64,000 nucleotides of DNA, taken from assembly GCA_000092065.1 (NCBI GenBank), contig CP000586.1; one strand, 5' to 3'. Below the pieces are notes generated by a model. That model had not been told where the DNA came from. It saw only the letters and a program-made list of their open reading frames with translations, and did no database searches. This document shows, piece after piece, positions 641 through 63,350 of this stretch. The position numbers were made by a program, and so were the translations under genes. Every line of letters begins with the position of its first letter. Within the stretch, counting starts at the first letter, position 1. This DNA comes from Ostreococcus lucimarinus. Lineage: Eukaryota.

Positions 641-1700
641 ATGTTCTCGTCGTTCAGCATCACCGGTGCGGCGGCGGAGGTGTACGACGTCGAACTCGCG
701 TACGAAGACGCGCGTCGCGGGCGACGCGACGGCGAAAAGGCGTCGACGACGACGACGACGACCGAGGTGACGTTCGACTCCAAGGAGGATCCCGAGGAGG
801 TGATTGATAAACTCGTGAAACAGCGACGAGATCTGCCGTACGAGACGGGATACGAATGCGTCGTCATCCGAGCGCTTTGCTCGGCGTCGAAAGTCGCGAT
901 ACAGCTCGGGGTGGAGAAGTATCAACCGAGACCGGTGGCGTTGAAGGTGACTTCGAATGGAAAGATGAACGCGGGACAGTCGCACTCGAGCTTGGCGTCG
1001 GTGCTCAAGCACTGTCAGCTCGGCTCGCTGCGGAAGCTGAGCGTGCAAGATGGATTGTTGTCCACGGTTTTGTCTTTACGAGATAAATGGACCTCGGTTC
1101 GAGAGTTGGACATTTCGAACAACGCGTTGGAAACGCTGCCGAAAGAGCTGTTCGCGCGTTTCCCGTACCTGGAGGTTCTTCGTTTGGACGGGAATAAACT
1201 CGCGACTTTGCCCAACTTGAACGCGTTCACGCTTCTCAAAGAGTTGCATGCGAACGGCAACGCGTTGTCAACGCTGCCAATCGACATGGTGGAAGATTTG
1301 GATTTGGAAGTTTTGTCCGTCGAGTTCAACCGCTTGAGCAAGCTGCACGTCAAGTTGAAGGATTTGTCCAAACTGCGCGTGTTGCGGTTACTTGAGAATC
1401 CCATAGAGACGCTGCCCCGGTTGAATAAGACCGCCAATCAAGAGTGCTTATCGCTCGCAAACGTGAATGTTTCGAGGAATGGAGCAACAGGCGGTGTCTC
1501 CGTACAGGTTCGCGAAACGAGCTCGTCTTACTTTTCCAGCATAGTAGGCGGCAAGACAACGTCCAAGGAAAAAGCGTACAACGCTTTCCTGAGCTTGATC
1601 TTTCGTAGCAGTGAATGTCAAAACGCATTACTCGTCGCCGCCGTCGCGGTGATCGCGTCGAAGAGCCGAGAAAACTGCGAAGCCATAGTGCTGACCGAAG
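641..1700 (+). CDS. LRR-ARM-patatin-like phospholipase multidomain protein, exon 1 of 7 (N-terminal region plus leucine-rich repeats); whole gene 641-4583, about 1166 aa
   Basis: ATG at 641. LRR consensus repeats are visible (LDISNNALETLPKELF..LEVLRLDGNKLATLP..LKELHANGNALSTLP..LEVLSVEFNRLSKL..LRVLRLLENPIETLP). The frame ends at a donor CTGACCGAAG|gtgcgagc in phase 1. Confidence 0.7.
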
Positions 1701-1777
1701 GTGCGAGCGTTCGACCGCTTCTTCACTCTGGGGAAAATTTACATGTGAAACTGACCGTACGTCCGTCCGCACCACAG

Positions 1778-1932
1778 GAGCCGTGAATCATCTCATAAAT
1801 ATCGTCCATTCGTCGAATAAATCGCTGGTGTACGAGGCATCGCGCGCGTTGGCGCATATTTGCGGCGCACCGAACCTGGCGCGCGCGCTCAATGAAATGC
1901 ACGTCACGGAAGCAGTCGTTAATTTAATTCAG
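1778..1932 (+). CDS. LRR-ARM-patatin protein, exon 2 of 7 (armadillo-like repeat)
   Basis: Acceptor accacag|GA restores the frame (G+GA=Gly). It encodes AVNHLINIVHSSNKSLVYEASRALAHICGAPNLARALNEMHVTEAVVNLIQ and ends at donor CAG|gtgagtat. Confidence 0.65.
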
Positions 1933-2025
1933 GTGAGTATCCGAATTAATTCCGATATGAATAATTTCGTTCGAATTTCGCGTTAAAAGTTCATATACTA
2001 ATTTACTGACTCTATACGTGCATAG

Positions 2026-2103
2026 GACTCGAGCGAACTGCGAAATAGATGTGGATTGATTATTTTGAACGGTCTCGTCGGTTCTTCACACGACGTATCC
2101 CGG
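2026..2103 (+). CDS. LRR-ARM-patatin protein, exon 3 of 7
   Basis: Acceptor tgcatag| is followed by 26 codons (DSSELRNRCGLIILNGLVGSSHDVSR) and donor CGG|gtaagcgt. The intron carries a ttactgac branch-point-like motif. Confidence 0.6.
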
Positions 2104-2160
2104 GTAAGCGTGTTTCACATCGGTTGACGCAAGAATCTAACTGATCCTTTCGTAACGCAG

Positions 2161-2208
2161 GCATGTTATTCCGACAAATTAATCGGACGCTTGACAGAGT
2201 TCGTGGCG
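2161..2208 (+). CDS. LRR-ARM-patatin protein, exon 4 of 7
   Basis: Acceptor taacgcag| is followed by 16 codons (ACYSDKLIGRLTEFVA) and donor GCG|gtgcgtac. Without splicing, the read-through hits TGA. Confidence 0.55.
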
Positions 2209-2270
2209 GTGCGTACTTGCGTAAATAATTGCATCGTGAAAGTCTGAATTAATTAAATAATTTCCCTCAG

Positions 2271-2591
2271 GCGATTGATGAGCATATGCGGCTATTAGCG
2301 CTGAGAACTTTGGGTACTTTCGCTTTCGACGAAACTAATAAACGTGCGATGCTCAAACTGCGCGATCTCCACTCGATTCTCGTCGTATTCGCGCTCCGCC
2401 CGGAATTAAAGGCGGCGAGCGTTGCGGTGAAGAAGGAATCGATCCGAGTATTGGCTATTTTGGGCGAGAACGAGCTCGTGCGCCAGGCCACTGGTGCGCC
2501 TCCCATCACTGGTCGTGGTATACGCATTCTTGCGCTAGATGGTGGTGGTATACGCGGTAGAGCGACGTTGAAGATGTTGAAAAGAATTGAG
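2271..2591 (+). CDS. LRR-ARM-patatin protein, exon 5 of 7 (ARM repeat plus start of patatin domain with Gly-rich oxyanion motif DGGGIRG)
   Basis: Acceptor ttccctcag| precedes the ARM-like text LLALRTLGTFAFDETNKRAMLKL..IRVLAILGENELVRQ. This is followed by GRGIRILALDGGGIRGRATLKMLKRIE, the patatin GGGxRG motif. Donor is GAG|gtgaggaa. Confidence 0.7.
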
Positions 2592-2658
2592 GTGAGGAAT
2601 TATTTCATTTATTTATTTAGAGCTTGAATTCACGAATTTTTTGTTTCGTCGCGATCAG

Positions 2659-2727
2659 GAAGGAACTGGTCGTCCGATTCACGAATCATTCGATTTGGTG
2701 TGCGGAACGTCTACTGGTGGCATATTG
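2659..2727 (+). CDS. LRR-ARM-patatin protein, exon 6 of 7 (patatin nucleophile elbow GTSTG)
   Basis: Acceptor gcgatcag| precedes EGTGRPIHESFDLVCGTSTGGIL, which contains the GxSxG serine-hydrolase motif of patatin/PNPLA enzymes. Donor is TTG|gtacgaaa. Confidence 0.7.
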
Positions 2728-2813
2728 GTACGAAAACGCCCGTCTAGAGCGCACGAATTAATTATTTCGCCGTGAACAATTATTTTTTACTAACCAACAC
2801 ATTTTGCTCGTAG

Positions 2814-4583
2814 GCCACGGCGACGTCCATCAAAAAGCTCTCATTGGAGCACTGCGATAAGATTTATGTAAATCTTGGCAGCAAAATCTTCAGTCAAACA
2901 ACGCACAACGAAGAGACCTCTGGATCGAACTCTTGGCTCGGCAGTGTTGGTTCCATGTACACGAGTGGAAAGCAACAACTTCTCGCGACGACGCTCTATA
3001 GCAGCAAGCACAACACCTCGACCTTTGAAACCCTCGTTAGACAAGAGTGCAACCCTGAAGCAGAAGAGCCAACGTGGATAGACACCGCTGCGTCGGGCGG
3101 TCCGAAAGTTTTCTGCGTTTCTACCCAAACGAGTCAAAATCCGGCGCAGCCGTACTTGTTCAGAAATTACACGTATCCGGCTGGCAGTACGAGTGCGTAT
3201 TCCCAGGCAGGTAGTTGCGAATATCTATTGTGGCAGGGTGTCTGTGCATCCGCCGCTGCACCATACTACTTGTATGTTGACGCCTTTGCGATAGAAAACG
3301 AGCGCTGGGTTGATGGAGCCATGACTTGCAACAATCCGGCGATGATGGGTGTCCAGGAAGCTCGACGACTTTGGCCAGACAAGAAAATTGACTGTGTCGT
3401 GTCCCTCGGAAGTGGTAACTTCATCCCCCACGAGAGAGATCCACCCATTTCTCTCGTCGCTTTGGCCAAAGATGTCTTGTTTGACAGCGCTTGCGACACT
3501 GAACGCGTTCATGAAAGCTTGAGTACGCTTTTGCCACTCATACCCGGGGCGCAATATTTCAGGTTCAACCCGGTTGACGAGCGTTGCAAGATAGAAGTCG
3601 ATGAAACGGATGTTGGTGCACTCCAAGGCTTATTTGACGCTACTGAAGAGTACATTGTGGCAGAGAAGGAGATGTTCGACAAGGTATGCCATTTATTGAG
3701 AGACGTCGACGACACAGATGAGGTCACCGCCAAACTTCTCGACACGGAAATTAGCGGAACGCGCAGTGGTGTTCTAGTTTTGGAAGCGCCCCGTTACGAA
3801 GAGGAACTTTCTGAATGTACTTCTGCCTTGAAGAATTTTTGTGCTTTAAGATCGATATCGATACAGTGCGCAGATTACTCCGCCAATAGACCCATGAATC
3901 CGGGCGAAGCACTGAGCCATCTGAACACGGTGGCGGAGACGTCGACTGCAGCAGTGATTCATTTCAACTGCCACGCCGATTCTGACGGATTGATTCTCAC
4001 TTGGCAGAAAGATGTCACTGCTATTGCTGAGCCTAGCTCGGTCGCTGAACTATTTCTCAGTAGGTCTGGTAGCCCGTATGCGTCAGTCAGCGAACACTGT
4101 GAAGCTGAGGCCCACATTGAGGTGCATGGAATATTGCATACTTTCTCAGGCAAGCACGTGCAAGTGAACGATGTCGGCGAGCGCACGTCGTCATACTTGT
4201 TTAAGCGTACTGTCCCAATGGACTACCTGGACGGATCGACGAGTCGAGAGTTATTTGGTTTATGGCGTGGGAAGATCATCGTTTCTCAAAGTTCACTTCC
4301 ATCCTCACTCGTTGCGGCGTGGCTTGAAGCCGGGGCGAAATGTGTGGTCGCACCGTGCAAGGAAGGCGGCGTCGTTAACGTTGAAAGCGAACAGACAGAC
4401 TTTATGGCTGCATTCTATCACGCACTTTTTGTTGTGGGCGCGGATGCTACTGCGGCGATGAGCGCAGCTGCCATCGTGCAGCCGGCGTGCTCGTATTACC
4501 GTTGTCACGTTCTTGTTCAAGGTGGAATCGTGGCACTTCGTCCTGACGAAGAGTTTGACTATGATTTGGATGCGCACGTATAG
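2814..4583 (+). CDS. LRR-ARM-patatin protein, exon 7 of 7 (rest of patatin domain with catalytic Asp motif DGA, plus roughly 400-aa C-terminal region of unknown function)
   Basis: Acceptor ttgctcgtag| is followed by a long ORF containing ..LWQGVCASAAAPYYLYVDAFAIENERWVDGAMTCNNPAMMG.. (patatin DGA/G catalytic dyad Asp). The stop TAG is at 4581-4583. Confidence 0.75.
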   Translation, partial: ATATSIKKLSLEHCDKIYVNLGSKIFSQTTHNEETSGSNSWLGSVGSMYTSGKQQLLATTLYSSKHNTSTFETLVRQECNPEAEEPTWIDTAASGGPKVFCVSTQTSQNPAQPYLFRNYTYPAGSTSAYSQAGSCEYLLWQGVCASAAAPYYLYVDAFAIENERWVDGAMTCNNPAMMGVQEARRLWPDKKIDCVVSLGSGNFIPHERDPPISLVALAKDVLFDSACDTERVHESLSTLLPLIPGAQYFRFNPVDERCKIEVDETDVGALQGLFDATEEYIVAEKEMFDKVCHLLRDVDDTDEVTAKLLDTEISGTRSGVLVLEAPRYEEELSECTSALKNFCALRSISIQCADYSANRPMNPGEALSHLNTVAETSTAAVIHFNCHADSDGLILTWQKDVTAIAEPSSVAELFLSRSGSPYASVSEHCEAEAHIEVHGILHTFSGKHVQVNDVGERTSSYLFKRTVPMDYLDGSTSRELFGLWRGKIIVSQSSLPSSLVAAWLEAGAKCVVAPCKEGGVVNVESEQTDFMAAFYHALFVVGADATAAMSAAAIVQPACSYYRCHVLVQGGIVALRPDEEFDYDLDAHV

Positions 4584-4616: not shown

Positions 4617-7331
4617 CTATTCTACTTCGATGTCCCCCAAACTTTCAGCGTACTTTTTCAACTCCTTCTCATTGATGACTTCGACGGACTCGACCCAACC
4701 AACGTACTGAAGAATACTGTAAGTCAACACCTTACCGGCATCTTGGATGATCGCCCAGATGATGACGTAAAGCCAACAATATCCGGACAGCTGCCAGGAA
4801 ATTCCTACCATGCCGTTTCCGAAAGGCCAGTACACCGCTAAAAGAGTCGACGCTCCAGTGGCGATGATGAAGGCGCCGACCAAGATGACACTTGGAGCGC
4901 GCGACCAGAACCAGCCCTTGGTTCTCGAGTTAAATACTGAGAAGTAATCAGAAAGACTGATTTTCAAGTAAATAAGCGTCTGGATCTCTCCGTATGACAT
5001 CGCTGGGAGACCAAGTTGAGACCAAGTGCTCGTTGGATCAACCGATGATAACGCTGAGCTCAGCAGAAGTACGGATGATGCCAAGGCTGTCAAGCCTATA
5101 GCGGAAGATACGATGTACAGGATATTCAAATCCCATTTTTCTGGTTGCATGGAAGCGTGCACGTTATCGTACGCCACAGAAATAATGGTTCCATCGTTCA
5201 ATATCGTAATCGTAACAAGTGCGATGACCGGAATAGCAAAGTGCTGCGGCCAAGACTCATTGAACTGACTAGGATGATAGAATATACACGAGATGAAGAA
5301 AAAGAACAACAACTGCTCTGTACACGCCACCCGATAAATCACAAAGTTTTTCATTCTTTGGAAGATTTTGCGGCTCGTGACAATCGCCGTAACGATGGTG
5401 GACAGACCGGGTTCGGTGAGAACAATATCAGCCGCAGCTTGCGCCGCGCTCGTAGCACCTTGTACAGCAATTCCGACATCCGCCCGCTTTAACGCAGGCG
5501 CATCATTCACACCGTCTCCAGTCATGCCGACGAGCATCCCTTGCTGTCGCAAAGCTTCTACAATCAGATATTTGTGCTCTGGGAATACTTGTGCGAATCC
5601 GTCCGCCTTTCGACACAGTTCACCATAATCTCGTCCTAGCGTGGTCGCCTTCTCTAGTTCCTCCGCTTTCATGAGAGGAAGTTTTTCAGTGCCAAGCACG
5701 TTTGTGCCCATACCCAACGTTCTGCAAGTTTCAACCGCAATGGCGCGGTGATCACCGGTGATCATTTTCACACTGACACCAAATTCGTTGGCGCAGTCAA
5801 TGGTATGCTTTGTGTCCGGGCGAGGAGGATCCAAAAAGGTCAAAATACCCAAAAATTCGAACTCGTTGCTATTGTTCTTTGTTTTCGCCACCGCGAGCGA
5901 ACGAATACCGCGATGAGCTAACTCGAGAACGTGCTTCTCGACCTCTTGACCGATCGTGGACTTGTTTGCACTCAACTCTAAAACCACGTGCGGGGCACCT
6001 TTCGTCACCTTGAACACGTTACCGTTCTTCTCCTTGATCGTGCTTTCTGTGCGCTTGATGGCTGGATCAAACGGAGTGTGATCGGTCTGTTCGTAATCGT
6101 TCAATGCGCTGATGTTAACAGCGTTTAATACCAAAGTATCGAGGGCGTCCTTTGGCGGCTCCCACCATTTCGCCGCCAACGCCGCGAGTTTGAGGACTTC
6201 TTCACGCGAAACACCCGGAACAAAGATTGGTAAATCCTTCTGAAGAACCATCTTGTTCAGAGTGAGCGTTCCTGTCTTGTCTGAGCACAAGATTGTCATA
6301 CCCGCCAACTCTTCAACAGAAGAAAGCCGCGCTACGATGGCCTTCTCCGCCGCAAGTTCATGACAACCTAAAGCCAACGTCGTCGTACAAACCACTCGCA
6401 AAGCGATAGGAATAGATGCAACAAGAAGGACTACGTTGAACGCTAAGACCTCCCAGAAATCAACCCCGATAGAAAGTAAATAAATGAACACCAGAGTACA
6501 GATGAAGAAACCGACAGCGACCAAGATGTATGTAATCTCTCTGAGTACTTTTTCAAAGTGCCCGAGCTCATCGACTCCTTGAACTAAGTCCGCGGTTTTC
6601 CCAAAGAACGTCTGGCTACCCGTCGCTGTGACGGTAGCTTCGATTTCTCCGCGCGTCACGGTGGAACCCATTTTTGCTTCCGCACCTGGAAACATTGCGA
6701 CCGGCAACGATTCCCCCGTGAGCGCGGATTGATCCACTTGAATAGGTTTTCCATCTCTAATCGTGCAATCCGCCGGGATCGCACCCCCCGCGCCGAGGAC
6801 GACGATGTCCCCGGGTACTAACTTTGTGGCGTTGATGATGTACACGCGTCCTTCGCGTTTCACCGTCGCCTCCGGTTTCAGCGACTCTCTCAACGCCGCG
6901 ATGGCGTCACCGGCCTTCATTTCCTCTATAAACCCCACGAGCACGTTCAACAATTGCAGCACCACCAACACGATGACGTCCACGAGACCATCCATGGACT
7001 GATGAATGTACGTCTCGATGGATTCGATGAGGATGGCTGCCCAGATCATCATCGGCATCGGTTGTACGAACTCCAACGCGAGTTTCAACCACATGCTATC
7101 CTCCTTCACCTTGAGCTGATTAGGTCCGAATAACTCCAACCTACGCGCCGCCTCGTCCTCGTTCAAACCGCTCTCGCCGGTGTTGAGCAAACTCTCGCGC
7201 TCGACGCCCATGTAGAAGCGCGCGTCGTCCGTCGTCTCCGTCCCATACGCCGCGCTGTCCTCCTTTCCTCGCCCGAGAAGCGGTGTCGAGCGAAGATCAG
7301 CGTCTTCATCTTCGCCTCCGCCGCGCGACAT
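4617..7331 (-). CDS. Plasma-membrane-type P-type H+-ATPase (P3A ATPase)
   Basis: The ORF carries the phosphorylation motif CSDKTGTLTLNKM and the hinge motif GDGVNDAPALKRADVGIAV. The N-terminal ..EDEAARRLELFGPNQLKVKEDSMW matches PMA/AHA proton pumps, and about 10 TM segments are present. The ORF track opens at a TTG at 7433; the first ATG (MSRGGGEDED) is at 7331. Confidence 0.9.
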   Translation of the reverse strand: MSRGGGEDEDADLRSTPLLGRGKEDSAAYGTETTDDARFYMGVERESLLNTGESGLNEDEAARRLELFGPNQLKVKEDSMWLKLALEFVQPMPMMIWAAILIESIETYIHQSMDGLVDVIVLVVLQLLNVLVGFIEEMKAGDAIAALRESLKPEATVKREGRVYIINATKLVPGDIVVLGAGGAIPADCTIRDGKPIQVDQSALTGESLPVAMFPGAEAKMGSTVTRGEIEATVTATGSQTFFGKTADLVQGVDELGHFEKVLREITYILVAVGFFICTLVFIYLLSIGVDFWEVLAFNVVLLVASIPIALRVVCTTTLALGCHELAAEKAIVARLSSVEELAGMTILCSDKTGTLTLNKMVLQKDLPIFVPGVSREEVLKLAALAAKWWEPPKDALDTLVLNAVNISALNDYEQTDHTPFDPAIKRTESTIKEKNGNVFKVTKGAPHVVLELSANKSTIGQEVEKHVLELAHRGIRSLAVAKTKNNSNEFEFLGILTFLDPPRPDTKHTIDCANEFGVSVKMITGDHRAIAVETCRTLGMGTNVLGTEKLPLMKAEELEKATTLGRDYGELCRKADGFAQVFPEHKYLIVEALRQQGMLVGMTGDGVNDAPALKRADVGIAVQGATSAAQAAADIVLTEPGLSTIVTAIVTSRKIFQRMKNFVIYRVACTEQLLFFFFISCIFYHPSQFNESWPQHFAIPVIALVTITILNDGTIISVAYDNVHASMQPEKWDLNILYIVSSAIGLTALASSVLLLSSALSSVDPTSTWSQLGLPAMSYGEIQTLIYLKISLSDYFSVFNSRTKGWFWSRAPSVILVGAFIIATGASTLLAVYWPFGNGMVGISWQLSGYCWLYVIIWAIIQDAGKVLTYSILQYVGWVESVEVINEKELKKYAESLGDIEVE

Positions 7332-7570
7332 CGTCGCGTCGTCGCCGATCGACGCGCGACGCCCTCGCCTTCGGCGCCCTAGAATGGGGTGTTGGCGCTC
7401 GCGTCGGGCGTCGTCGATGTTAGCTTTATTCAACTTTATTAGTCATCGCAACGCGTCGAATACGCGTTTATCGATTTATCGCGCGCGGCGACGGTGCGTC
7501 TTTCAACACTAAAGGCGAGCGAGCGGCGCGCGGCGAGCCGCAGACGCGCGCGCGCGACGTCGAGCGCGGC

Positions 7571-10102: not shown

Positions 10103-10321
10103 ACGTTCGACTTTCCTAGTCTAGCTTTACATGTCATAGAAACGTCATCTATAGCGACTCGCGTCCCGCGCGCGCGCGCGCGCATCCACATCGCTCCGAT
10201 TTGTCACTGTTTGCGCATACGAATCGTAAACCCCAGACATTCCGATTTTTCCCTCGCCGCTCGCGTCGCCCCGTCCCGCGCGGGTCGGTCGCGCGACGCG
10301 AGTGCTCGACCCGCGCGCGCG

Positions 10322-14193: not shown

Positions 14194-14245
14194 GCCGGTT
14201 CGGCGACGCGTTTGAACGCGCGCCACATCGCGCGCGACGACGGCC

Positions 14246-47822: not shown

Positions 47823-47858
<36 letters not shown>

Positions 47859-51254: not shown

Positions 51255-51427
51255 ACGCCCCGCAAACGATCGATTAAACTCTATTCCCCTCGATCATTGT
51301 TCGCGTATTTTGTCATAAACTCAACGCAGTGCGAGAACACCGCGCCGCCCCGACGCCTCGCCGGGCGCACATCTCGTCGCGCGCGACGCGCGCTCGCGCG
51401 AGCGGTGATCTCACGACCGGTGTCGCG

Positions 51428-54357: not shown

Positions 54358-54908
54358 GTCGACGCGCGTCGCTTTGACGCCGCGCCGACGCGTCGCCCCG
54401 CGCGACGGACCGGGGTGTTTTACATCCCGTATTCATGTATGTGAATACGTGATCCAGTGACGTATATAAACCACGACGAGACCCATCGCGGGGACGATCG
54501 CGGGGACGCTCTACTATTATTATACGACCACGACGCTCTTATTGAAGTCACGGATCCGGTATATAATGAACCCCGAACGCCGTCGAGGGGACCCATCGAT
54601 CGCGTCGACGGCGCGCGACGGCGGACGACGACGCGCCGCGCTCGAGCGCCTTGATCCTTCGCGACGCGACGCGAACGCGCGACGATCGATCGATCGATCG
54701 AGCGCGACGCCTCGACGCGACGCGACGCGACGCGACGCGAATCGCGCACCGGGACATTCGCGCATTCGGCGGTTACGACGATTGCCGACACGCGGCGAAT
54801 CGAATCGCGCGCGCCGAGCGCGACGCGACGCGACGGGACGATCGCGGGGAATCGCGCGACGGCGAAACGATCGCCGACGTCGAACGGGCGCGCGCGCGAT
54901 CGATCGAG

Positions 54909-57137: not shown

Positions 57138-57247
57138 CTACATCGCGTCTCGACGCACCGCGTCGTCTCGTCAGTCCCCGTCGTTCGCTCGTTCGCTCGT
57201 TCGCTCGTTCGCGTTCGCGTTCGCGTTCGCCTCGCGCGTTCACGCAC

Positions 57248-57391
57248 GTCTCCGTCCCACGCCGTCGCCACCAAAAAATTCCCCGTCGGCGACCACGACA
57301 GCGAGCTTATCCCATCGTTCGGCGGATTCGCCACCAGAAAGTCCCCGTTCGGGTTCGCCGGCGCCTGCGTCGCCGCCTGTCCCCACGACAT
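57248..57391 (-). CDS. RAE1: RAE1/Gle2, exon 1 of 2
   Basis: ATG at 57391 opens MSWGQAATQAPANPNGDFLVANPPNDGISSLSWSPTGNFLVATAWDGD, with donor |gtgcgtgaac. The 110-nt GC-rich intron has a branch-like gactgac and a (CGTTCGCT)n microsatellite. Confidence 0.7.
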
Positions 57392-57412
57392 CGCCTCGCC
57401 TCAACGATCCCT

Positions 57413-57580
57413 TCCGTCGTCCTTCGTCCGTCGTCCGTCGTCCTTCGTCCGTCGTCGGTCGGTCCGTTCGCTCGCGCGTCGTCGCGTCGATCGGTCCGCG
57501 TCTTCGCGCGTCGCGCTCGCGTCGCCGCGCCGTTTTTTCGCGCGCCGTTTTTTCGCGCGCGACGAATCGCGCGCGACGAA
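57413..57580. repeat. Cluster of short tandem repeats in the RAE1/TrpD divergent promoter
   Basis: (TCCKTCG)n heptamer array at about 57413-57468; 15-bp unit gcgccgttttttcgc x2 at 57527-57556; 12-bp unit gcgcgacgaatc x2 at 57557-57580. Confidence 0.75.
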
Positions 57581-57612
57581 TCGCGACGCGCGTCGGCGCC
57601 AACTTTTTATCG

Positions 57613-59043
57613 ATGCACGAGCGCGTACTCGATCGTCTTCGAACGCCATCCCCGAGTGCGATGCGCGACGCGCGCGCGTCGTACGAAACCCCGTCCCGGG
57701 CGCGACACGTGACCGCGCGGACGCCGGGCGACGCCGATCGCTCGCGCGCGCGCGCGTCGCACACCGGGACGCGACGCGGCCGACGCGCGAAGACTGCGCG
57801 CGATCCGAGCGCGATGCGCGCGTTCAACGCGCCCGCGGCGACGGCGACGCGCGGTGCGGTGACGACGGCGACGCGACGACGACGCGCGACGACGATGGAG
57901 GGACCGAGCGCGACGATCGCGGCGACGACGATGCGCGCGAGGCGATGGGAACGCGCGCGAGGGTGCGGGAACGGGCGCGCGGGACGCGCGGTCGTCGCGC
58001 GGGCGACGGCGAGGCGCGCGGCGGTGGATCTGCGGAAGGTGATCGAGGATTTGTGCGAGGGGGCGGATTTATCCGAGGAGGACGCGCACGCGGCGATGGA
58101 GGCGCTGCTGGACGCGGATCCGACGCAGATCGCGGCGTTTTTGGTGCTGCTCCGGGCGAAGGGGGAGACGGCGAGCGAGATGGCGGGGTTGGCGCGAGCG
58201 ATGCAGTCGAGAGCGGTGACGGTGGACGCGGGGGACGACGTGCTGGACATCGTCGGCACGGGGGGGGACGACGCGGGCACGGTGAATATTTCCACTGGAT
58301 CGTGCGTGTTGGCCGCCGCGGCGGGAGCGAAGGTGGCGAAACACGGTTCGCGATCGGTGTCTTCGCTGTGCGGGTCGGGCGACGTGCTGGAGGCGCTCGG
58401 CGTGGACATCGAGCTGGGACCGGAGAGCATGAAGCGCTGCGTCGAGGAAGTCGGCGTCGGATTTATGTTCGCGCCGAGATATCATCCGGCGATGGCGAAG
58501 GTCTCGCCCGTGCGCAAGGCGCTCAAGGTGCGAACGGCGTTTAACATGTTGGGCCCGATGTTGAACCCGGCGCACAGCAAGTACGCGCTCGTCGGCGTGT
58601 ACAGCACGGGGGTGCAGCAACTCATGGCGGACTCGTTGATGAAGCTTGGGATGAAGAAGGCGTTGATCGTGCACTCCATGGGATTGGACGAACTCACGCC
58701 GGCGGGACCCGCGGACGTCGTCGAGGTGACGCCGAGCGGCACGCGCGCGTACACGTTCGAGCCGAAGGATGTCGACATTAAGCCGTGCACGCTCGAGGAT
58801 TTGCGCGGCGGCGACCCGACGACAAACGCGAGAATTTTGCGAGCCGCGTTGGAGGGTGAGAAGGGCCCGGTCGCCGAGACCCTGATTTTGAATGCCGGCG
58901 TCGCTATGGCGGCCGCGCAGCAAGCGAAGGACGTCGTGGAAGGCATCGCCATGGCGAGAGAGGCGCACGAGAGCGGCAAGGCGGGCAAAACGCTCGACTC
59001 CTGGATCAAGCTCACCCAAGAATTGAGAAAGACCGAGGCGTAG
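57613..59043 (+). CDS. trpD: Anthranilate phosphoribosyltransferase (TrpD), probably plastid-targeted
   Basis: Family blocks ..LDIVGTGGDDAGTVNISTGSCVLAAAAGAKVAKHGSRSVSSLCGSGDVLEALGV..; FMFAPRYHPAM..; NMLGPMLNP.. are present. An Arg/Thr-rich leader runs from the ATG at 57613; an alternative start is at 57814. Confidence 0.85.
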   Translation: MHERVLDRLRTPSPSAMRDARASYETPSRARHVTARTPGDADRSRARASHTGTRRGRRAKTARDPSAMRAFNAPAATATRGAVTTATRRRRATTMEGPSATIAATTMRARRWERARGCGNGRAGRAVVARATARRAAVDLRKVIEDLCEGADLSEEDAHAAMEALLDADPTQIAAFLVLLRAKGETASEMAGLARAMQSRAVTVDAGDDVLDIVGTGGDDAGTVNISTGSCVLAAAAGAKVAKHGSRSVSSLCGSGDVLEALGVDIELGPESMKRCVEEVGVGFMFAPRYHPAMAKVSPVRKALKVRTAFNMLGPMLNPAHSKYALVGVYSTGVQQLMADSLMKLGMKKALIVHSMGLDELTPAGPADVVEVTPSGTRAYTFEPKDVDIKPCTLEDLRGGDPTTNARILRAALEGEKGPVAETLILNAGVAMAAAQQAKDVVEGIAMAREAHESGKAGKTLDSWIKLTQELRKTEA

Positions 59044-59109: not shown

Positions 59110-60252
59110 CTACTTCTCGGCTTCCTGCTTCTTTGAAACCGCTCCCATCTGCGAAGGATCCATCGACGGGTACTTGGTCGCGTGCCCCACCGCGGCCGGC
59201 GCAGGCATGGGGATCGCCACATGCGCCGGCATATCTGGCGGTAAAGCCTGCCCATTCGCTGGAGCTTCCACACCTGGAGCCATCATCATCACGGTTGGTG
59301 GCGGTGCCGGCGCAGACCCTTGGTTGCCGCTCGCTTTTTTCGCCGCCGACTTGCCCCACTGGAGTCGGCATCGCTCTCCGTTGATTTCGAGATTTATCGC
59401 CGCATCTTCCGCCGCCTTCTCCGCACCTTCGCGCGTGGCGAAAGTGATGAACGCACATTTCTTCGTCCCAATCACGCGAATGCCCTTGATTTCGCCGTAC
59501 TGATAGAAGCGCGAGTTGATGTCGTCCTCGGTGACCTTTTCCGGGTCGACGCCGCCTACAAACAACGTGGTGATGCTCGCATCTTCGGGTGGCGTCAACT
59601 TTTGGCTCGGTCGCTCTTTCGCGCGTTTGAGCATTTGTTCCGCCACCGGATCGTTCGTCCCGAAGTATCTATCCTTAATATTTTGCTTTCTCAACTCTGG
59701 CGCCGCGCTCAGTTCCGGCATGTGCGTATCCCCGTTGCAAGGTCGATACGGACAATCGTTCCTCGTGCACGCGTTTCTCAACCAAAACGTGCATATCGGC
59801 GTTTTATTCTTGTTATAATACGGCTTCTTCCTCGCCAACCGCATCAACAGTTCGTTATTTTTCTCCTTCCCATCCTTCTCGTACGCGTCCTCGCCCTCGT
59901 CCAGCTTTTTCGCGATCTCATTCACCGCGAAATCCCGGTTCACCGAGCTCGACGGCAGCGCGCTCCCTCCCGCGCGTCCCAGCGCGGCGTCCCGCGCGGC
60001 GACGGGTATCCCGTAATCTAAATCCAGCAGGCACACCTGGCACACGTTCTTCGCCTGCGCGATCTCTTTGCACACCACCGTCTTCTTGTACCTCGCCTCG
60101 TTCCCGGGTCGCCAGCGAAACACGGTGAAGGGGCGACCGCTGATCGCGCACTCGCCGCCGAGCGGCATCTTTTGCACGCGCACGTACGGGTTGGGGCCGA
60201 GGCAGTCCTCGCACACCACCGGGAATTCCCTGGCCTCGGATTCGTCCGACAT
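59110..60252 (-). CDS. RBM22: Pre-mRNA splicing factor RBM22/Slt11 (zinc-finger plus RRM)
   Basis: MSDESEAREFPVVCEDCLGPNPYVRVQKMPLGGECAISGRPFTVFRWRPGNEARYKKTVVCKEIAQAKNVCQVCLLDLDYGIPV, a CCCH finger (ICTFWLRNACTRNDCPYRP) and an RRM (TLFVGGVDPEKVTEDDINSRFYQYGEIKGIRVIGTKKCAFITFATRE) are present. Confidence 0.9.
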   Translation of the reverse strand: MSDESEAREFPVVCEDCLGPNPYVRVQKMPLGGECAISGRPFTVFRWRPGNEARYKKTVVCKEIAQAKNVCQVCLLDLDYGIPVAARDAALGRAGGSALPSSSVNRDFAVNEIAKKLDEGEDAYEKDGKEKNNELLMRLARKKPYYNKNKTPICTFWLRNACTRNDCPYRPCNGDTHMPELSAAPELRKQNIKDRYFGTNDPVAEQMLKRAKERPSQKLTPPEDASITTLFVGGVDPEKVTEDDINSRFYQYGEIKGIRVIGTKKCAFITFATREGAEKAAEDAAINLEINGERCRLQWGKSAAKKASGNQGSAPAPPPTVMMMAPGVEAPANGQALPPDMPAHVAIPMPAPAAVGHATKYPSMDPSQMGAVSKKQEAEK

Positions 60253-60458
60253 GACGCCTCGAACGCGTCGCGGTGTGACGGCGGCGGTTCGACGCGGGCG
60301 TCCCGCGCGCGCGATGCGCGGCCGCAGCGACGCACACACGGACGCGCGCGCGCGGCTCGCGCGGCGGGACGCGCGCGAGCGCGCGAGGCGTCGTCAAGGG
60401 GGGCGATCTCGGCGCGCGGCGCGCGCGGCGACGAGAAAACGCTTCGGGACGGCGCGCG

Positions 60459-63350
60459 ATGGCGCGTTCGAACGATGCGGATGCGTCGGCGATGGCGTCG
60501 TTGGCGTCGGCGAGGCGGTACGCCTATCTCAGTTCGATCGTGCACGCGGAAGAAGACGATGAGGATGACGTCAGGACGCGCGCGATGGGGACGCTGAGCG
60601 CGATGGTGGCGAGCGTGGGGTTGGATGCGAGCGTGGCGCGCGCGTTGGAGAGCGTCGTGAGCGGGACGCCGAGCGCGAGCGCGCGGGCGCCGGGGACGTC
60701 GGCGAGTCTGCTGCCAGAGGTTTCGATGAAAGACTTTGAGGGGTATCTACGACGAACGCGGGAGCGCTACGCGGAGTTCGTGGAGCAGCGAGCGTACGCG
60801 GCGGCGGCGCGAGCGACGCCGGAGGAGCGGAGCGAGGCGCGGTTGCGGCGGTACGAATTAGAAGAGGGCGTGAGTGAATTAAGCAGCGTGCCGGACTTGT
60901 TCTTCGACGAGACGTTTGATTTGAGTCGACCGGAGACGTTTGCACGGGCGTGTGCGGGATTAGAGGATCAGAGCTTGCGGAATCTAGCGCGCGCTTCCAT
61001 GGATGCGCAGGAACATTTAAGCGCACACTTGGATACGATCGAGCAGCATTTGATTCGAGAGATCATCGCGAAGAGCGATGAGTTCTTTGATGCGCTCAAG
61101 GAACTGCGCGATCTTCACGACTCGATGACGGAGACCCAAATCACGGTTGGTTCGATGCGTCAAACCGTCAGGAACATTGGCGAACACTTGGTCAAGCCGG
61201 GGCAGCTCATGATAGACTTGAACGACAAGCGGGACAAAATGCAAGGATTGACTGAAAAATTTGCATCCATCGCCGCGCTTCAACAAATGCGTTTGGATAT
61301 GGACGTTTTCGTTGAGAGTACGGATTATCCAGGCGCGCTGCAAATCGCAGAGGATATTAGGAAAACTTTGGCGGATGACAGAGTGCTCGCCGAGTTGTCG
61401 TGTTTCAGAAAGCTTCCAGAGCACATCGAACGGACGGTCAGTAAAGTGCGAAACGTCATGATTAGTGATTTCGTAGCGGGTGCAAGCCTACCGAGGGACG
61501 CCAAGGCTGTCGTCTCCCCGAAAACACTCGAACATCTGTCAAAGGTTGCCGCGGCGAACGGATTGAAACCGCCGGCTGCGAATTTCAACGAAGCGCCCCA
61601 GTTTGGCGATAAGAGAGGAAACGTGCTCGACACTACGATTCCACCTTTTATCGCACTGTTATTTTCCGGAAGTTCCTTTGTTTGCGATGCACTCGAGGCG
61701 TGGTCGTCTGCTATGTCGGAAGACGTGCGCCAAATCGAGCACGTCGCCGTAGACGTGATGCTCAGTCGAGTCACGGGGGAGCGAGTCAAGAGCTCGACGA
61801 CGTGCATGGAAGAAGGCGTGTTTGACTCCGCGTACGCGAATGCTATTCGAAAGTTACCCGGTGAGGTCTTTGTGGAGATGCTCGTGGCGTTGACAGAGAC
61901 GTTCAACGCGTACTTTGAACGGGCCAACCAAATCAAACTCGTAATTCGTGGCGTCATCGGTAACGATGAAGAGGCTTTAACGCAGCTTCGTTCGATCGAT
62001 GAAAATTTAATATTGGCCGCGCACGAAGCCGCGACAAACTTTGATTACGTGTGCTCGCAGACCGCTTTGGCGACGTCTAATGAGGCTTTGAATAAAGTCA
62101 TAGACATCGCACAAGGACGATTTGCGAAAATTCTTGGCATTCGAGCTCCCATGAACATCAACTTGAGCGCTCGAGAGTTCATGCGAATCATGGATGCGAC
62201 GAACGGATTCTTAGACTTGGCCGAATCGCTTGGCAAGCATCGCTGTCTCAGCCTTCGTTCAACGGTTGCAAATCAAAGCAAAGCGTTCATCCGCGAGCAA
62301 CACGCCACGGCTTCAACAAAGCTCGTATCTTTGCTAGAATGTGAGACGTGGGCGCTCGCAAAGTTACCAAAACACTTTCAAGCACTCGTAGACGCATTAG
62401 CAGATGGTACGAGTAAGCTTCCAGATGTCATGAGCGAAGATGTAGGCGATGCATCGTTCGTCGTCGTGGCGGATGAAAAATTTCACCCAGTGAATAGCGC
62501 CGTGCTACTTCTGCAAATGTTGACCGACTACGTGCGCCTTGCGCGCCAGATTCCGTCTCTCTCCACGGAAGTGACGCATCGAACGATAGATCTCGTGAAG
62601 CAGTACAATACGGCCGTGTGTCAACTCATTCTGGGTGCGGGCGCGATGCAAGTGTCCAAGCTGAAATCCATCACTGCGAAACATTTATGTTTGGCGCAGC
62701 AGAGCGTTTCGCTCTTCGCATCTCTTCTTCCAACCTTGCAAGAAGCCATGTGCGCTCTAATCGAAGGCCCAAAACACGTCCTTCTTCGTCAAGAGTTCGA
62801 GCGGATGCTGCGAGATTTGAAGCTGCACAAGAGTGAAATTCACGACAAGCTCGTGAGCATCATGCGCGATCGAGTGGAGTTCCATTTGCACCGCTTGGCC
62901 TCAATCGTCGAGTCTCTGCGCGACGAAGGCAACGTAAAGCAAGTCGATGGAGCAAGCGATTTCGCGATTTCGTTAACGAAAGAGATGGGAACTTTGCGAC
63001 GCGTCATATGTGAATTATTATCTGAAGACGACAGACGAGACGTTCTTGGCCGCGTACGCGACGAAGCCGTCGCGTCGATCGTTTCGCGAGTTCAGTCTTT
63101 GGAATCGGGAGACAATTTGCGAATTATCGCGCAGCTGAGTGTTGACTTAGACGTTTGCGCCGATTCCATGAAGGAGATGCCGGTATCAGGCGCCGATGCG
63201 TCTGAAGACGCGCTTGCGTCGCTCGCGAGCGCATTTCGATTAAAAGTACCCCCGCCCGTCGTGAATGAACCGGCAGACGACGTCTCCGCGCGAGAAAAAG
63301 AACAAGTAGGGCAAAACAAAGCAGCGGACGATAAACCTAGCACCGATTAG
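60459..63350 (+). CDS. Vesicle-tethering complex subunit, VPS54/syndetin-like (GARP/EARP-type), tentative
   Basis: 963-aa ORF at about 50 percent GC. The mid-N-terminal region (..FFDETFDLSRPETFARAC..LEDQ..LDTIEQHLIREIIAKSDEFFDALKELRDLHDSMTETQITVGSMRQTVRNIGEHLVKPGQLMIDLNDKRDKMQ..) resembles the Vps54_N/DUF2451 organisation. The family call is from memory only. Confidence 0.4.
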   Translation: MARSNDADASAMASLASARRYAYLSSIVHAEEDDEDDVRTRAMGTLSAMVASVGLDASVARALESVVSGTPSASARAPGTSASLLPEVSMKDFEGYLRRTRERYAEFVEQRAYAAAARATPEERSEARLRRYELEEGVSELSSVPDLFFDETFDLSRPETFARACAGLEDQSLRNLARASMDAQEHLSAHLDTIEQHLIREIIAKSDEFFDALKELRDLHDSMTETQITVGSMRQTVRNIGEHLVKPGQLMIDLNDKRDKMQGLTEKFASIAALQQMRLDMDVFVESTDYPGALQIAEDIRKTLADDRVLAELSCFRKLPEHIERTVSKVRNVMISDFVAGASLPRDAKAVVSPKTLEHLSKVAAANGLKPPAANFNEAPQFGDKRGNVLDTTIPPFIALLFSGSSFVCDALEAWSSAMSEDVRQIEHVAVDVMLSRVTGERVKSSTTCMEEGVFDSAYANAIRKLPGEVFVEMLVALTETFNAYFERANQIKLVIRGVIGNDEEALTQLRSIDENLILAAHEAATNFDYVCSQTALATSNEALNKVIDIAQGRFAKILGIRAPMNINLSAREFMRIMDATNGFLDLAESLGKHRCLSLRSTVANQSKAFIREQHATASTKLVSLLECETWALAKLPKHFQALVDALADGTSKLPDVMSEDVGDASFVVVADEKFHPVNSAVLLLQMLTDYVRLARQIPSLSTEVTHRTIDLVKQYNTAVCQLILGAGAMQVSKLKSITAKHLCLAQQSVSLFASLLPTLQEAMCALIEGPKHVLLRQEFERMLRDLKLHKSEIHDKLVSIMRDRVEFHLHRLASIVESLRDEGNVKQVDGASDFAISLTKEMGTLRRVICELLSEDDRRDVLGRVRDEAVASIVSRVQSLESGDNLRIIAQLSVDLDVCADSMKEMPVSGADASEDALASLASAFRLKVPPPVVNEPADDVSAREKEQVGQNKAADDKPSTD

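What the first reader, a model, noticed from the sequence alone, without database searches (positions are those of the whole stretch)
641..63350. Two compositional classes of genes interleaved: about 50 percent GC long genes versus about 65-70 percent GC short genes
By eye, the LRR-ARM-patatin gene (641-4583), the H+-ATPase (4617-7331), the BEACH protein body (about 21300-27846), the ABCG transporter (33643-35754), RIOK2 and the VPS54-like gene (60459-63350) are markedly less GC-rich. They are also nearly free of spurious antisense ORFs in the six-frame track. The housekeeping and organellar genes between them (GSS, TGD2, TlyA, ATG1, S2P, TRX, TrpD and others) are highly GC-rich. Their Arg/Ala-rich antisense frames generate dozens of 100-500-aa artefactual ORFs. 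The BEACH gene even switches class inside one ORF: its 5-prime portion, about 20551-21300, is (GAC)n-rich and GC-rich, and the rest is about 50 percent GC. Such mosaicism could reflect expression-linked GC3 codon bias, GC-biased gene conversion acting on short genes, or different evolutionary origins.
Basis: seen in the sequence. Interest (0 to 1): 0.5.

Follow-up and report, generated by a model that had tools for sequence, protein, structure and literature searches.

The report
Promoter-anchored GC gradient in Ostreococcus genes
The apparent "GC-rich short genes versus GC-poor long genes" in this stretch of the tiny green alga Ostreococcus are not two kinds of gene. Almost every gene starts in a GC- and CpG-rich zone at its promoter and decays to about 50% GC within roughly 1 kb, so a gene's overall GC mostly reflects its length.

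Summary
The window comes from Ostreococcus lucimarinus or a very close relative. The compositional heterogeneity is real and large, but it does not form two gene classes.

- **Distribution:** per-gene GC runs continuously from 0.507 to 0.707, and mixture models give no support for bimodality.
- **Gradient:** GC3 falls inside genes from 0.80 (codons 1-100) to about 0.50. The slope is negative in 26 of 28 genes. The first 100 codons of long and short genes are equally GC-rich.
- **Anchoring:** all 12 divergent gene junctions have GC 0.65-0.75 and all 12 convergent junctions 0.47-0.59. Distance from the start codon alone explains 64% of the variance of GC in 500-nt windows.
- **5' domains:** they are CpG-rich (o/e 1.6-1.95), G-skewed, full of ACG/CGT-type repeats, indel-prone and poorly conserved.
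- **Conservation:** syntenic loci of other Ostreococcus lineages show the same gradient, which rules out foreign origin.
- **CpG hypermutability:** among 40 metagenome haplotypes it is about 3.9x in low-GC gene bodies and about 1.1x in the 5' domains. This fits published 5mC-free first nucleosomes.

This is the grass-type 5'-3' GC gradient, with CpG-island-like features, in a picoalga. The cause is inferred, not shown: methylation-linked CpG decay in gene bodies, probably plus promoter-proximal GC-biased gene conversion.

The parts
99..770 (.). GC/CpG-rich 5' domain at the start of the LRR-ARM-patatin gene (GC 0.68, CpG o/e 1.89)
   Evidence: (CGT)n repeat at 386-441
641..4583 (+). LRR-ARM-patatin gene. 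It is multi-exon or frame-interrupted between about 1600 and 2850. GC falls from 0.58 to 0.47-0.51
4617..7331 (-). P-type H+-ATPase, a long gene. GC3 is 0.76 at the 5' end, and the body has GC about 0.49
7220..7828 (.). GC-rich domain over the divergent H+-ATPase / NDP-sugar transferase promoter (GC 0.68)
10215..10798 (.). GC-rich domain at the 5' end of TGD2/MlaD (GC 0.74, CpG o/e 1.95)
13421..14989 (.). GC-rich domain over the divergent GSS / Tcp10C promoter and both 5' coding regions. It holds (GTC)n/(GAC)n repeats
17213..18003 (.). GC-rich domain over the divergent TlyA / unknown-256 promoter (GC 0.72)
19540..20876 (.). GC-rich domain over the divergent SBDS / BEACH promoter, including the (GAC)n-rich 5' end of BEACH
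20476..27846 (+). BEACH-domain gene (2456 aa). GC3 falls from 0.83 to about 0.50 with a length constant of about 560 nt. The plateau from about 21400 onward shows the baseline composition
29536..30827 (.). GC-rich domain over the divergent Kelch / cysteine-protease promoter (GC 0.69)
32559..33481 (.). GC-rich domain at the 5' end of the minus-strand RPS11 (uS17) gene. It explains the GC-rich 3' flank of ABCG
33643..35754 (-). ABCG transporter. It is the downstream gene of a tandem pair, has no 5' GC domain, and GC3 is 0.58-0.74 rising toward its 3' end
36711..37286 (.). GC-rich domain over the divergent Utp11 / unknown-148 promoter (GC 0.71)
39393..40104 (.). GC-rich domain at the 5' end of Castor/Pollux, at a tandem junction (GC 0.67)
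41663..42558 (.). GC-rich domain over the divergent unknown-711 / RF2 promoter (GC 0.68)
43384..44961 (-). RIOK2. It is a tandem-downstream gene with a weak 5' peak only; GC 0.512
47065..48327 (.). The strongest GC-rich domain (GC 0.74), over the divergent ATG1 / S2P promoter. It contains a 72-nt tandem duplication at 47531-47680
49656..51950 (.). Two adjacent GC-rich domains covering the RPL29/RPE promoter, RPE and the 5' end of GidA
53615..55435 (.). Broad GC-rich domain covering TRX and the 5' end of DUF760 (GC 0.70). It is rich in CG-containing tandem repeats
56946..58946 (.). Broad GC-rich domain covering the WD40/TrpD promoter and nearly all of TrpD (GC 0.68; G3>>C3)
59918..60899 (.). 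GC-rich domain over the divergent RBM22 / VPS54 promoter (GC 0.70)
60459..63350 (+). VPS54-like gene. GC3 falls from 0.81 to 0.54

Best explanation
Shown: the window contains one population of genes with a shared composition gradient anchored on promoters.

- A domain of 0.5-2 kb is centred on each promoter, and most promoters here are bidirectional. The domain extends into the first 200-300 codons. It has GC 0.63-0.74 and CpG o/e 1.6-1.95, with G>C and A>T on the coding strand. It is full of ACG/CGT-type short tandem repeats and evolves fast, with many indels and low protein conservation.
- Downstream, composition decays roughly exponentially toward GC of about 0.49-0.50 and GC3 of about 0.50. 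The length constant is about 0.6-1.1 kb.
- A gene's overall GC is therefore mainly a function of its length. Short genes never leave the domain. Long genes are mostly plateau.

Inferred mechanism: the substitution process differs between the promoter-proximal domain and the gene body.

- (i) In gene bodies, CpGs are methylated (Dnmt5 linker methylation, taken from the literature) and decay by 5mC deamination. The first nucleosomes after the TSS lack 5mC and so keep their CpGs, like a CpG island.
- (ii) A process independent of CpG also raises GC near promoters, most plausibly GC-biased gene conversion at promoter-proximal recombination sites. It works against a genome-wide GC-to-AT mutation bias, so the interiors of long genes drift toward the AT-biased equilibrium.
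- (iii) A minor gene-specific layer, probably translational selection for C-ending codons, keeps a few genes such as RPE and RPS11 GC3-rich along their whole length.
For: **Geometry**
- GC3 by 100-codon bin runs 0.80, 0.73, 0.68, 0.62, 0.61 and on to about 0.50. The slope is negative in 26 of 28 genes (p=3e-6). Fit: GC3=0.516+0.325*exp(-x/1091 nt), R2 0.55.
- Long and short genes have equal GC3 in codons 1-100, 0.78 versus 0.81.
- Divergent junctions have GC 0.65-0.75 and convergent junctions 0.47-0.59, with no overlap (n=12 each, p=3.6e-5). GC of 500-nt windows = 0.496+0.204*exp(-d/675), R2 0.64.
- 30 of 34 gene starts lie in or within 150 nt of one of the 22 GC-rich domains (p=1.7e-8).
- Two-way model R2: position 0.56, gene 0.50, both 0.78.

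**Not a coding-only effect**
- Intergenic promoter DNA is as GC-rich as 5' coding sequence.
- In the first 100 codons GC2 is 0.56 against about 0.43 later, and GARP amino acids are 0.39 against about 0.27.

**Conservation**
- Syntenic loci show the same gradient: L025 0.83 to 0.53 and L026 0.68 to 0.45. It is weaker in L027 and L028.

**CpG component**
- CpG o/e falls from 1.8-1.9 to 1.1-1.4 while TpG+CpA o/e rises from 0.6 to 1.0-1.2.
- NCG codons fall from 79% to 52% to 37% of the NCN four-fold families.
- Among 40 haplotypes, using isolated SNPs only, the per-site rate of CpG transitions relative to other transitions is 1.14 in GC-rich domains. It is 3.44 in intermediate zones and 3.94 in low-GC bodies (z=4.9, p=1e-6). 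At third positions, CpG transitions per CpG site are 8.5 versus 31.7 per kb (p=6.6e-7). With short-read-type assemblies only, the ratios are 1.18 versus 3.50 (p=0.006).
[quoted passage not shown] CpGs in gene bodies of O. lucimarinus are highly methylated (PMC12633428).

**Non-CpG component and gBGC**
- GC3 of non-NCN four-fold families falls from 0.74 to 0.57.
- Mutation in Mamiellophyceae is GC-to-AT biased: equilibrium GC is 37% against 59% observed in O. tauri (PMC5455958).
- The non-recombining mating-type region has about 20% lower GC3 (PMC8557840).
- The same gradient-plus-gene-length logic explains the apparent GC bimodality of grass genes (PMC4316631).

**Codon-selection layer**
- RPE and the RPS11 exon have flat GC3 of 0.82-0.84 with C3>G3.
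- Optimal codons in O. tauri mostly end in G or C (PMC3673656).
Against: - The sample is about 31 genes in one 64-kb window plus four orthologous loci. Genome-wide generality is not shown.
- TSS positions are not known here. I anchored on first in-frame ATGs and on prokaryote-style gene calls from metagenomes.
- The gradient is almost entirely a coding-strand G3 gradient: G3 falls from 0.49 to 0.26 while C3 stays near 0.3. In non-CpG families the shift is G3 to T3. Neither strand-symmetric gBGC nor CpG deamination predicts this.
- CpG is over-represented even in gene bodies (o/e 1.1-1.4), unlike vertebrate bulk DNA.
- Four of nine tandem-downstream genes lack a 5' domain, and TrpD and TRX are GC-rich throughout.
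- The haplotypes are metagenome assemblies. Some may be long-read assemblies whose errors could themselves depend on methylation, and any may be chimeric.
- The GC-rich domains show a transversion-rich spectrum that may partly reflect alignment problems in repeats.
- Polarised W-to-S versus S-to-W counts, and localisation of recombination by the four-gamete test, were uninformative. gBGC is therefore supported only by analogy and by literature.
Confidence: 0.7

Rival explanations
1. Pure promoter-hotspot gBGC. Recombination initiates at nucleosome-depleted promoters. Conversion tracts about 1 kb long favour G/C alleles, and this alone builds the gradient. The CpG pattern would be a by-product, because gBGC opposes CpG-to-TpG changes.
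For: The geometry is the same as in grasses, where this model was proposed. Mutation is GC-to-AT biased and the non-recombining mating-type region has low GC3. Non-CpG four-fold sites also show a gradient. The four-gamete test gives at least 22 historical recombination events in 20 kb, so recombination is frequent.
Against: gBGC is strand-symmetric, whereas the gradient is G3-specific on the coding strand. CpG transitions are specifically 3-4x elevated in gene bodies but not in 5' domains, relative to other transitions. The CpG-linked families carry about twice the gradient of non-CpG families: delta GC3 is 0.33 versus 0.17. Four-gamete intervals are not visibly concentrated at GC peaks. The polarised W/S test was uninformative.
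Confidence: 0.2
2. The composition is a by-product of repeat dynamics and relaxed constraint. Promoters and N-terminal extensions (transit peptides, disordered tails) are weakly constrained. They are colonised by slippage-prone CG-rich trinucleotide repeats (ACG/CGT, GCG), and these repeats set the local composition and strand asymmetry.
For: Nearly all 70 TRF rows fall in the GC-rich domains, and the ACG-type strand is always the coding strand. Indel polymorphism is 11.2 per kb there against about 1 per kb elsewhere. Amino-acid identity of the first 100 codons to orthologues is 0.44-0.46 against 0.7-0.79 later. This reading could explain the coding-strand G and A excess.
Against: The GC3 gradient continues through conserved Pfam-domain regions well beyond the repeats. 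In GSS the domain spans aa 52-492 and GC3 falls from 0.87 to 0.60. The reading does not explain why only GC-rich repeats accumulate, nor the zone-specific CpG hypermutability.
Confidence: 0.12
3. There are two real gene classes set by expression. Highly expressed housekeeping and organellar genes are under translational selection for G/C-ending codons. Long, weakly expressed genes are not.
For: Codon bias rises with expression in O. tauri and optimal codons mostly end in G or C. RPE and the RPS11 exon show flat, high GC3 with C3>G3. Gene identity adds significantly to position in the model (F=4.4, p=1e-9).
Against: Long genes are as GC3-rich as short ones in their first 100 codons. The gradient lies within genes (26 of 28). 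Intergenic promoter DNA and codon positions 1 and 2 shift as well. There is no bimodality. In O. tauri expression is barely related to gene length (rho 0.05).
Confidence: 0.05
4. The genes have different evolutionary origins: horizontally acquired or outlier-chromosome-type low-GC genes interleaved with native GC-rich genes.
For: Mamiellales do have low-GC outlier chromosome regions.
Against: Gene order (GSS-Tcp10-prefoldin-TlyA-SBDS-BEACH-Kelch-protease-ABCG-Utp11) is conserved in two other Ostreococcus lineages and partly in more distant contigs. The low-GC genes are low-GC only in their distal parts in every lineage. The BEACH protein's best non-algal matches are land-plant BEACH proteins. 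The composition switch lies inside single ORFs.
Confidence: 0.01

Closest known systems
5'-to-3' GC3 gradient and apparent GC bimodality of grass (Poaceae/monocot) genes (Wong 2002; Glemin 2014; Clement 2014, PMC4316631)
   Same: GC3 is highest near the gene start and declines along the coding sequence. Short genes are therefore GC-rich and long genes GC-poor, which can look like two classes. Non-coding parts follow the same trend. The gradient is conserved among related species.
   Different: This genome is nearly intron-less, haploid and 13 Mb. The gradient is read directly in single exons and decays over about 1 kb. No bimodality is seen with 31 genes. The gradient is dominated by CpG-containing NCG codons and by coding-strand G3.
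Vertebrate CpG-island promoters with positive GC skew (as I recall, Ginno et al. 2012/2013 on GC skew and R-loops; not checked here)
   Same: The domains are 0.5-2 kb long, centred on promoters that are often bidirectional, and extend into the 5' end of the gene. GC and CpG o/e are elevated relative to gene bodies. G>C skew occurs on the non-template strand downstream of the start. CpG transition rate is reduced relative to methylated bulk DNA. Published maps place 5mC in gene bodies but not in the first nucleosomes.
   Different: Bulk DNA is not CpG-depleted: o/e stays at or above 1.1. Methylation is laid down by Dnmt5, confined to nucleosome linkers, and the 5' zone carries 6mA instead. Nothing here shows R-loops or CpG-binding proteins. 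Methylation was not measured in this work.
GC3 peaks at recombination hotspots in Saccharomyces (PMC2997560, listed, abstract only)
   Same: A compact genome with promoter-associated recombination and biased gene conversion proposed to raise local GC3.
   Different: The yeast peaks are described at chromosomal scale. Here the pattern repeats at every promoter with an amplitude of 0.3 in GC3.
Low-GC outlier (mating-type) chromosome regions of Mamiellales (PMC8557840)
   Same: GC3 is about 20% lower where recombination is suppressed. The plateau composition of long-gene interiors here (GC about 0.49-0.50) is of the same order.
   Different: Those are domains of hundreds of kb on one chromosome. 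Here the low-GC stretches are the interiors of individual long genes on an ordinary chromosome, with conserved synteny.

Membership tests
Grass-type 5'-3' genic GC gradient | GC3 declines from the 5' to the 3' end within genes | tested here: met
   26 of 28 genes have a negative slope. Bin means fall from 0.80 to about 0.50.
Grass-type 5'-3' genic GC gradient | Short genes are GC-richer than long genes as a consequence of the gradient | tested here: met
   GC3 versus length: Spearman -0.73. GC3 in codons 1-100 is equal for long and short genes.
Grass-type 5'-3' genic GC gradient | Non-coding DNA near the TSS follows the same trend | tested here: met
   Divergent intergenic regions have GC 0.65-0.75 and convergent ones 0.47-0.59.
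Grass-type 5'-3' genic GC gradient | Bimodal distribution of genic GC3 | tested here: not met
   BIC favours one component for GC3 (-61.6 versus -51.3) and is indifferent for GC, with n=31 genes. Bimodality is not obligatory in the published model when gene lengths are continuous.
Grass-type 5'-3' genic GC gradient | The proposed cause: a 5'-3' gradient of recombination and gBGC | tested here: inconclusive
   Four-gamete intervals occur in both zones. Polarised W/S counts are underpowered.
CpG-island-type promoter domain | A discrete domain of 0.5-2 kb with elevated GC and CpG o/e relative to flanking DNA | tested here: met
   22 domains have GC 0.63-0.74 and CpG o/e 1.60-1.95, against 1.1-1.4 in distal gene bodies.
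CpG-island-type promoter domain | Coincides with promoters and gene 5' ends | tested here: met
   30 of 34 start codons lie in or within 150 nt of a domain (p=1.7e-8). All 12 divergent junctions are covered. True TSSs are not known.
CpG-island-type promoter domain | Bulk genome CpG-depleted (o/e well below 1) | tested here: not met
   CpG o/e stays at or above 1.1 in gene bodies.
CpG-island-type promoter domain | CpG mutability lower inside the domain than outside | tested here: met
   The CpG-transition to other-transition ratio is 1.14 inside and 3.94 outside (p=1e-6). With short-read assemblies only it is 1.18 versus 3.50 (p=0.006).
CpG-island-type promoter domain | Unmethylated in the germline while gene bodies are methylated | not testable with these tools
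Compositional classes of different origin (HGT / outlier chromosome) | The composition shift covers whole genes, and the genes lack conserved synteny or orthologues | tested here: not met
   The switch lies inside ORFs. Synteny and the gradient are conserved in L025, L026 and L028.
Translational-selection codon bias | Gene-wide, independent of position, and restricted to synonymous coding sites | tested here: not met
   Not met for the main pattern. Met only for RPE and the RPS11 exon, which have flat GC3 of 0.82-0.84 with C3>G3. Expression itself is not testable here.

The most novel reading that the evidence does not exclude
Ostreococcus, and to a lesser degree other Mamiellales, may have true functional analogues of CpG islands. 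These would be promoter-proximal domains that are kept free of Dnmt5 cytosine methylation and marked by 6mA instead. Such domains would escape CpG decay, and this epigenetic partition, rather than recombination, would write most of the fine-scale GC landscape of the genome. The same partition would also account for the coding-strand G skew, the repeat richness and the fast-evolving N-termini of proteins.
Probability: 0.3. Interest if true: 0.65.

Novelty: new member of a known kind. Interest (0 to 1): 0.45.

Why it matters
**For evolutionary genomics.** The cause of 5'-3' GC gradients and of GC 'bimodality' in plant genes (gBGC, methylation or selection) is still debated. In grasses the question is confounded by introns, large genomes and diploidy. 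Ostreococcus offers the same phenomenon in a nearly intron-less, haploid, 13-Mb genome. Mutation-accumulation lines, population genomes and 5mC, 6mA and nucleosome maps already exist for it, so the competing mechanisms become directly testable.

**For practical work.**
- Per-gene GC or GC3 in Mamiellales must not be read as evidence of expression class or foreign origin without correcting for gene length.
- GC-rich 5' domains generate many spurious antisense ORFs, uncertain start codons and assembly breaks.
- Protein N-termini are shaped by the local nucleotide bias.

Tried and rejected
1. **Minor-allele polarisation of SNPs.** Rejected, because the divergent haplotypes L018 and L024 dominate the singletons.
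2. **Outgroup polarisation with L018.** Only 20-30 W/S changes fall in each zone. Equilibrium GC came out at 0.58, 0.56 and 0.49, and the two branches gave opposite biases. Uninformative.
3. **Four-gamete localisation of recombination.** Rm is at least 22 in 20 kb, with intervals in both GC-rich and GC-poor DNA. Metagenome contigs may be chimeric. No conclusion on hotspots.
4. **Nucleosome-scale periodicity of CpG in long gene bodies.** The first run timed out. In the second, the top periods differed between genes (150, 190 and 240-250 nt). No consistent signal.
5. **Huff & Zilberman 2014 (PMC3969382).** Not held in the library, so I relied on papers that cite it.
6. **Literature searches for a description of this gradient in Ostreococcus or Mamiellales.** None found. 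That is not proof that none exists.
7. **BEACH protein as a haplotype anchor.** It returned one contig only, so I used the short SBDS and RPE proteins instead.
8. **VPS54 look-up to test what lies beyond 63350.** The contigs end about 450 nt past the stop, inside the GC-rich stretch, so the orientation of the next gene stays unknown.
9. **tRNA and Rfam scans of the window.** Nothing found.

Full report
**Identity of the sequence.** The window has 57.6% GC and no ambiguous bases. Its ribulose-phosphate 3-epimerase is identical to XP_001418198 of Ostreococcus lucimarinus CCE9901. Other proteins cluster with sequences named Ostreococcus 'lucimarinus'. The same locus occurs in hundreds of marine metagenome contigs and on an 848,534-bp JGI record. 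Pfam scans validated about 31 protein genes. Gene calls on related contigs added a minus-strand RPS11 (uS17), a plastid-type RPL29, a Yae1 gene and three small unknown genes. They also showed that the long plus-strand ORFs at 32129-33469 and 49403-50338 are antisense artefacts. No tRNA or Rfam RNA is present.

**Checking the observation.** A sliding-window profile shows GC swinging between about 0.46 and 0.74, with GC skew changing sign at each peak. The remaining genes range from 0.55 to 0.71. The distribution is continuous, however. Only TRX and TrpD among the validated genes exceed 0.65, and Gaussian mixtures give no support for two components. GC3 is strongly tied to gene length (Spearman -0.73). 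Spurious open frames track local GC as stop-codon arithmetic predicts, rising from 0.48 to 3.75 overlapping open frames per base.

**What the pattern really is.**
- Binning each validated coding sequence in 100-codon steps from the first ATG gives mean GC3 of 0.80, 0.73, 0.68, 0.62 and 0.61, then a plateau near 0.50.
- The slope is negative in 26 of 28 genes (p=3e-6). An exponential with a 1.1-kb length constant fits with R2 0.55.
- The first 100 codons of genes of at least 600 aa are as GC3-rich as those of shorter genes, 0.78 versus 0.81.
- In a two-way model, position alone (7 parameters) explains 56% of GC3 variance, gene identity alone (31 parameters) 50%, and both together 78%.
- The peaks sit on promoters. 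All 12 divergent junctions have GC 0.65-0.75 within +-200 nt and all 12 convergent junctions 0.47-0.59, with no overlap. The nine tandem junctions are mixed.
- Distance from the gene's own start codon alone predicts GC of 500-nt windows with R2 0.64.
- Segmentation gives 22 GC-rich domains, and 30 of 34 start codons lie in or within 150 nt of one. The four genes without a domain (Yae1, prefoldin, ABCG, RIOK2) are all downstream members of tandem pairs.
- The 'class switch' inside BEACH is simply the clearest single example. GC3 falls from 0.83 to 0.50 with a length constant of about 560 nt.

**Anatomy of the 5' domains.**
- They are CpG-rich: o/e is 1.8-1.9 around the start codon against 1.1-1.4 distally, while TpG+CpA rises reciprocally from 0.6 to 1.0-1.2.
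- The coding strand is G- and A-rich. GC skew reaches +0.28 at +300 to +450 nt.
- Almost every tandem repeat found by TRF lies in these domains. The repeats are ACG/CGT-type and other CG-rich units, and the ACG-type strand is always the coding strand.
- The shift reaches the protein. In the first 100 codons GC2 is 0.56 against about 0.43 later, and Gly+Ala+Arg+Pro is 0.39 against about 0.27.
- These segments evolve fast. Amino-acid identity to orthologues is 0.44-0.46 in the first 100 codons against 0.7-0.79 later. Indel polymorphism among haplotypes is 11.2 per kb against about 1 per kb elsewhere.
- Metagenome contigs often end inside these domains. This fits the report that unsequenced parts of the O. 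tauri genome average 80% GC.
- At codon level the gradient is mostly in G3, which falls from 0.49 to 0.26 while C3 stays near 0.3. NCG codons fall from 79% to 37% of the NCN four-fold families. Non-CpG four-fold families show a smaller GC3 drop, 0.74 to 0.57, mainly G3 to T3.

**Related genomes.** A search with the BEACH protein found orthologues at 66-72% identity and more distant ones at 33-43%. I fetched their contigs. Gene order is conserved, which excludes foreign origin. The two Ostreococcus-like loci show the same gradient, 0.83 to 0.53 and 0.68 to 0.45, and the same NCG decline. A GC-rich contig (0.63, Micromonas-like by composition, my inference) and a GC-poor one (0.455, Bathycoccus-like by composition, my inference) show it only weakly.

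**Mechanism: what is shown and what is inferred.**
- I projected 43 metagenome loci onto the window, giving 40 haplotypes. I kept only SNPs more than 8 nt from any other difference.
- The per-site rate of CpG transitions relative to other transitions is 1.14 in GC-rich domains, 3.44 in intermediate zones and 3.94 in low-GC bodies (z=4.9, p=1e-6).
- At third codon positions, CpG transitions per CpG site are 8.5 versus 31.7 per kb (p=6.6e-7).
- With short-read-type assemblies only, the contrast persists at 1.18 versus 3.50 (p=0.006).
- CpG hypermutability in gene bodies and its absence in 5' domains is what differential cytosine methylation predicts. Published maps say exactly this for prasinophytes: linker 5mC along gene bodies, with 6mA replacing 5mC in the first nucleosomes after the TSS.
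- I did not measure methylation. If the 'contig_' assemblies are long-read, some of their differences could be methylation-dependent base-calling errors. That would still point to methylation of gene bodies.
- CpG decay cannot be the whole story, because non-CpG synonymous sites also decline.
- Mutation in Mamiellophyceae is biased from GC to AT, with equilibrium GC 37-46% against 48-64% observed. The non-recombining mating-type region has about 20% lower GC3. In plants the same gradient is attributed to gBGC at promoter-proximal hotspots.
- gBGC is therefore a plausible second component. My own tests of it were uninformative.
- Coding-strand G3 specificity is predicted by neither process and remains unexplained.
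- A few genes carry a different signature. RPE and the RPS11 exon have flat GC3 of 0.82-0.84 with C3>G3. This fits the translational selection described for O. tauri.

**Comparison with what is known.** The geometry and its consequence, short genes GC-rich and long genes GC-poor, match the 5'-3' GC3 gradient of grasses. There it was shown that a steep gradient plus variation in gene length produces apparent bimodality. The 5' domains also resemble vertebrate CpG islands in size, position, CpG enrichment, GC skew and reduced CpG mutability. They differ in that the bulk genome is not CpG-depleted and the methylation system is Dnmt5 with 6mA. Five full-text searches found no description of this gradient in Ostreococcus or Mamiellales. 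I therefore class it as a new member of a known kind, with the caveat that the library is incomplete.

**Verdict.** It is a single promoter-anchored gradient shared by nearly all genes, not two interleaved gene classes. Interest is moderate. The phenomenon is familiar from plants, but the system is unusually clean for settling its cause. The evidence on CpG mutability links the GC landscape to the recently described 5mC/6mA partition.

Noticed in passing
window 1600-2850 (within 641-4583): The LRR-ARM-patatin gene is not one ORF. The reading frame changes several times. Pieces lie at 641-1786, 1615-1986, 2286-2627 (which contains the patatin GGGIRG motif), 2641-2775 and 2844-4583. This suggests several small introns or frameshifts in an otherwise intron-poor region.
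   Followed up: partly
window 32126-33016 (-): A ribosomal protein S17/uS17 (RPS11-type) gene with introns lies on the minus strand. The 446-aa plus-strand ORF 32129-33469 that covers it has no Pfam hit and is an antisense artefact.
   Followed up: yes
window 49409-49771 (-), possibly with an upstream exon near 49990-50200: A Ribosomal_L29-family gene lies on the minus strand (plastid-type by its N-terminal extension, my reading). The 311-aa plus-strand ORF 49403-50338 is an antisense artefact.
   Followed up: partly
window 11811-12155 (-): A Yae1_N-domain ORF has no in-frame ATG. Related contigs call a 39-aa ORF just upstream, so the gene probably has a short first exon and an intron.
   Followed up: partly
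window 47531-47680: A 72-nt unit is tandemly duplicated (2.1 copies, 97% identical) in the ATG1/S2P divergent promoter and 5' region. Gene calls for S2P vary from 465 to 750 aa among haplotypes, so this region is length-polymorphic.
   Followed up: partly
window 14138-14193: A perfect 28-nt direct repeat (ATCTTGGGTCCGCCCTCAGTGGTCGTCC x2) sits in the GSS/Tcp10C divergent intergenic region. It may be a shared promoter element.
   Followed up: no
GC-rich domains throughout, e.g. 13907-14370, 20659-20688, 47820-47877, 54193-54264: ACG/CGT trinucleotide repeats are always oriented so that the coding strand reads GAC, ACG or CGA (runs of Asp, Thr or Arg), never GTC, TCG or CGT. The antisense frames then give the poly-Val, poly-Arg and poly-Ser artefacts.
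   Followed up: partly
loci L029/L030 and L037-L041, mapping to window about 14000-14300, 57100-57600 and 63800: Short-read metagenome contigs repeatedly terminate inside the GC-rich 5' domains. These domains act as assembly breakpoints.
   Followed up: partly
GC-rich domains versus gene bodies, whole window: Polymorphism in the GC-rich domains is transversion-rich: ts:tv is about 1.1, against about 3.0 in low-GC bodies. This holds even after removing clustered differences. It may be a real spectrum difference or residual misalignment in repeats.
   Followed up: partly
window 19855-20265 (+); L025 9523-9843: A small ORF between SBDS and BEACH is called as a 136-aa gene in related contigs. At the same position in another Ostreococcus lineage the call has an LSM domain, so a small Sm-like gene may sit inside the SBDS/BEACH GC-rich domain.
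   Followed up: no
window 63351-64000: Right after the VPS54 stop, GC rises to 0.74 with (CG)n-type repeats. The gradient model predicts a promoter or 5' end, or a short wholly GC-rich gene. Related contigs end here, so the next gene's orientation could not be determined.
   Followed up: partly
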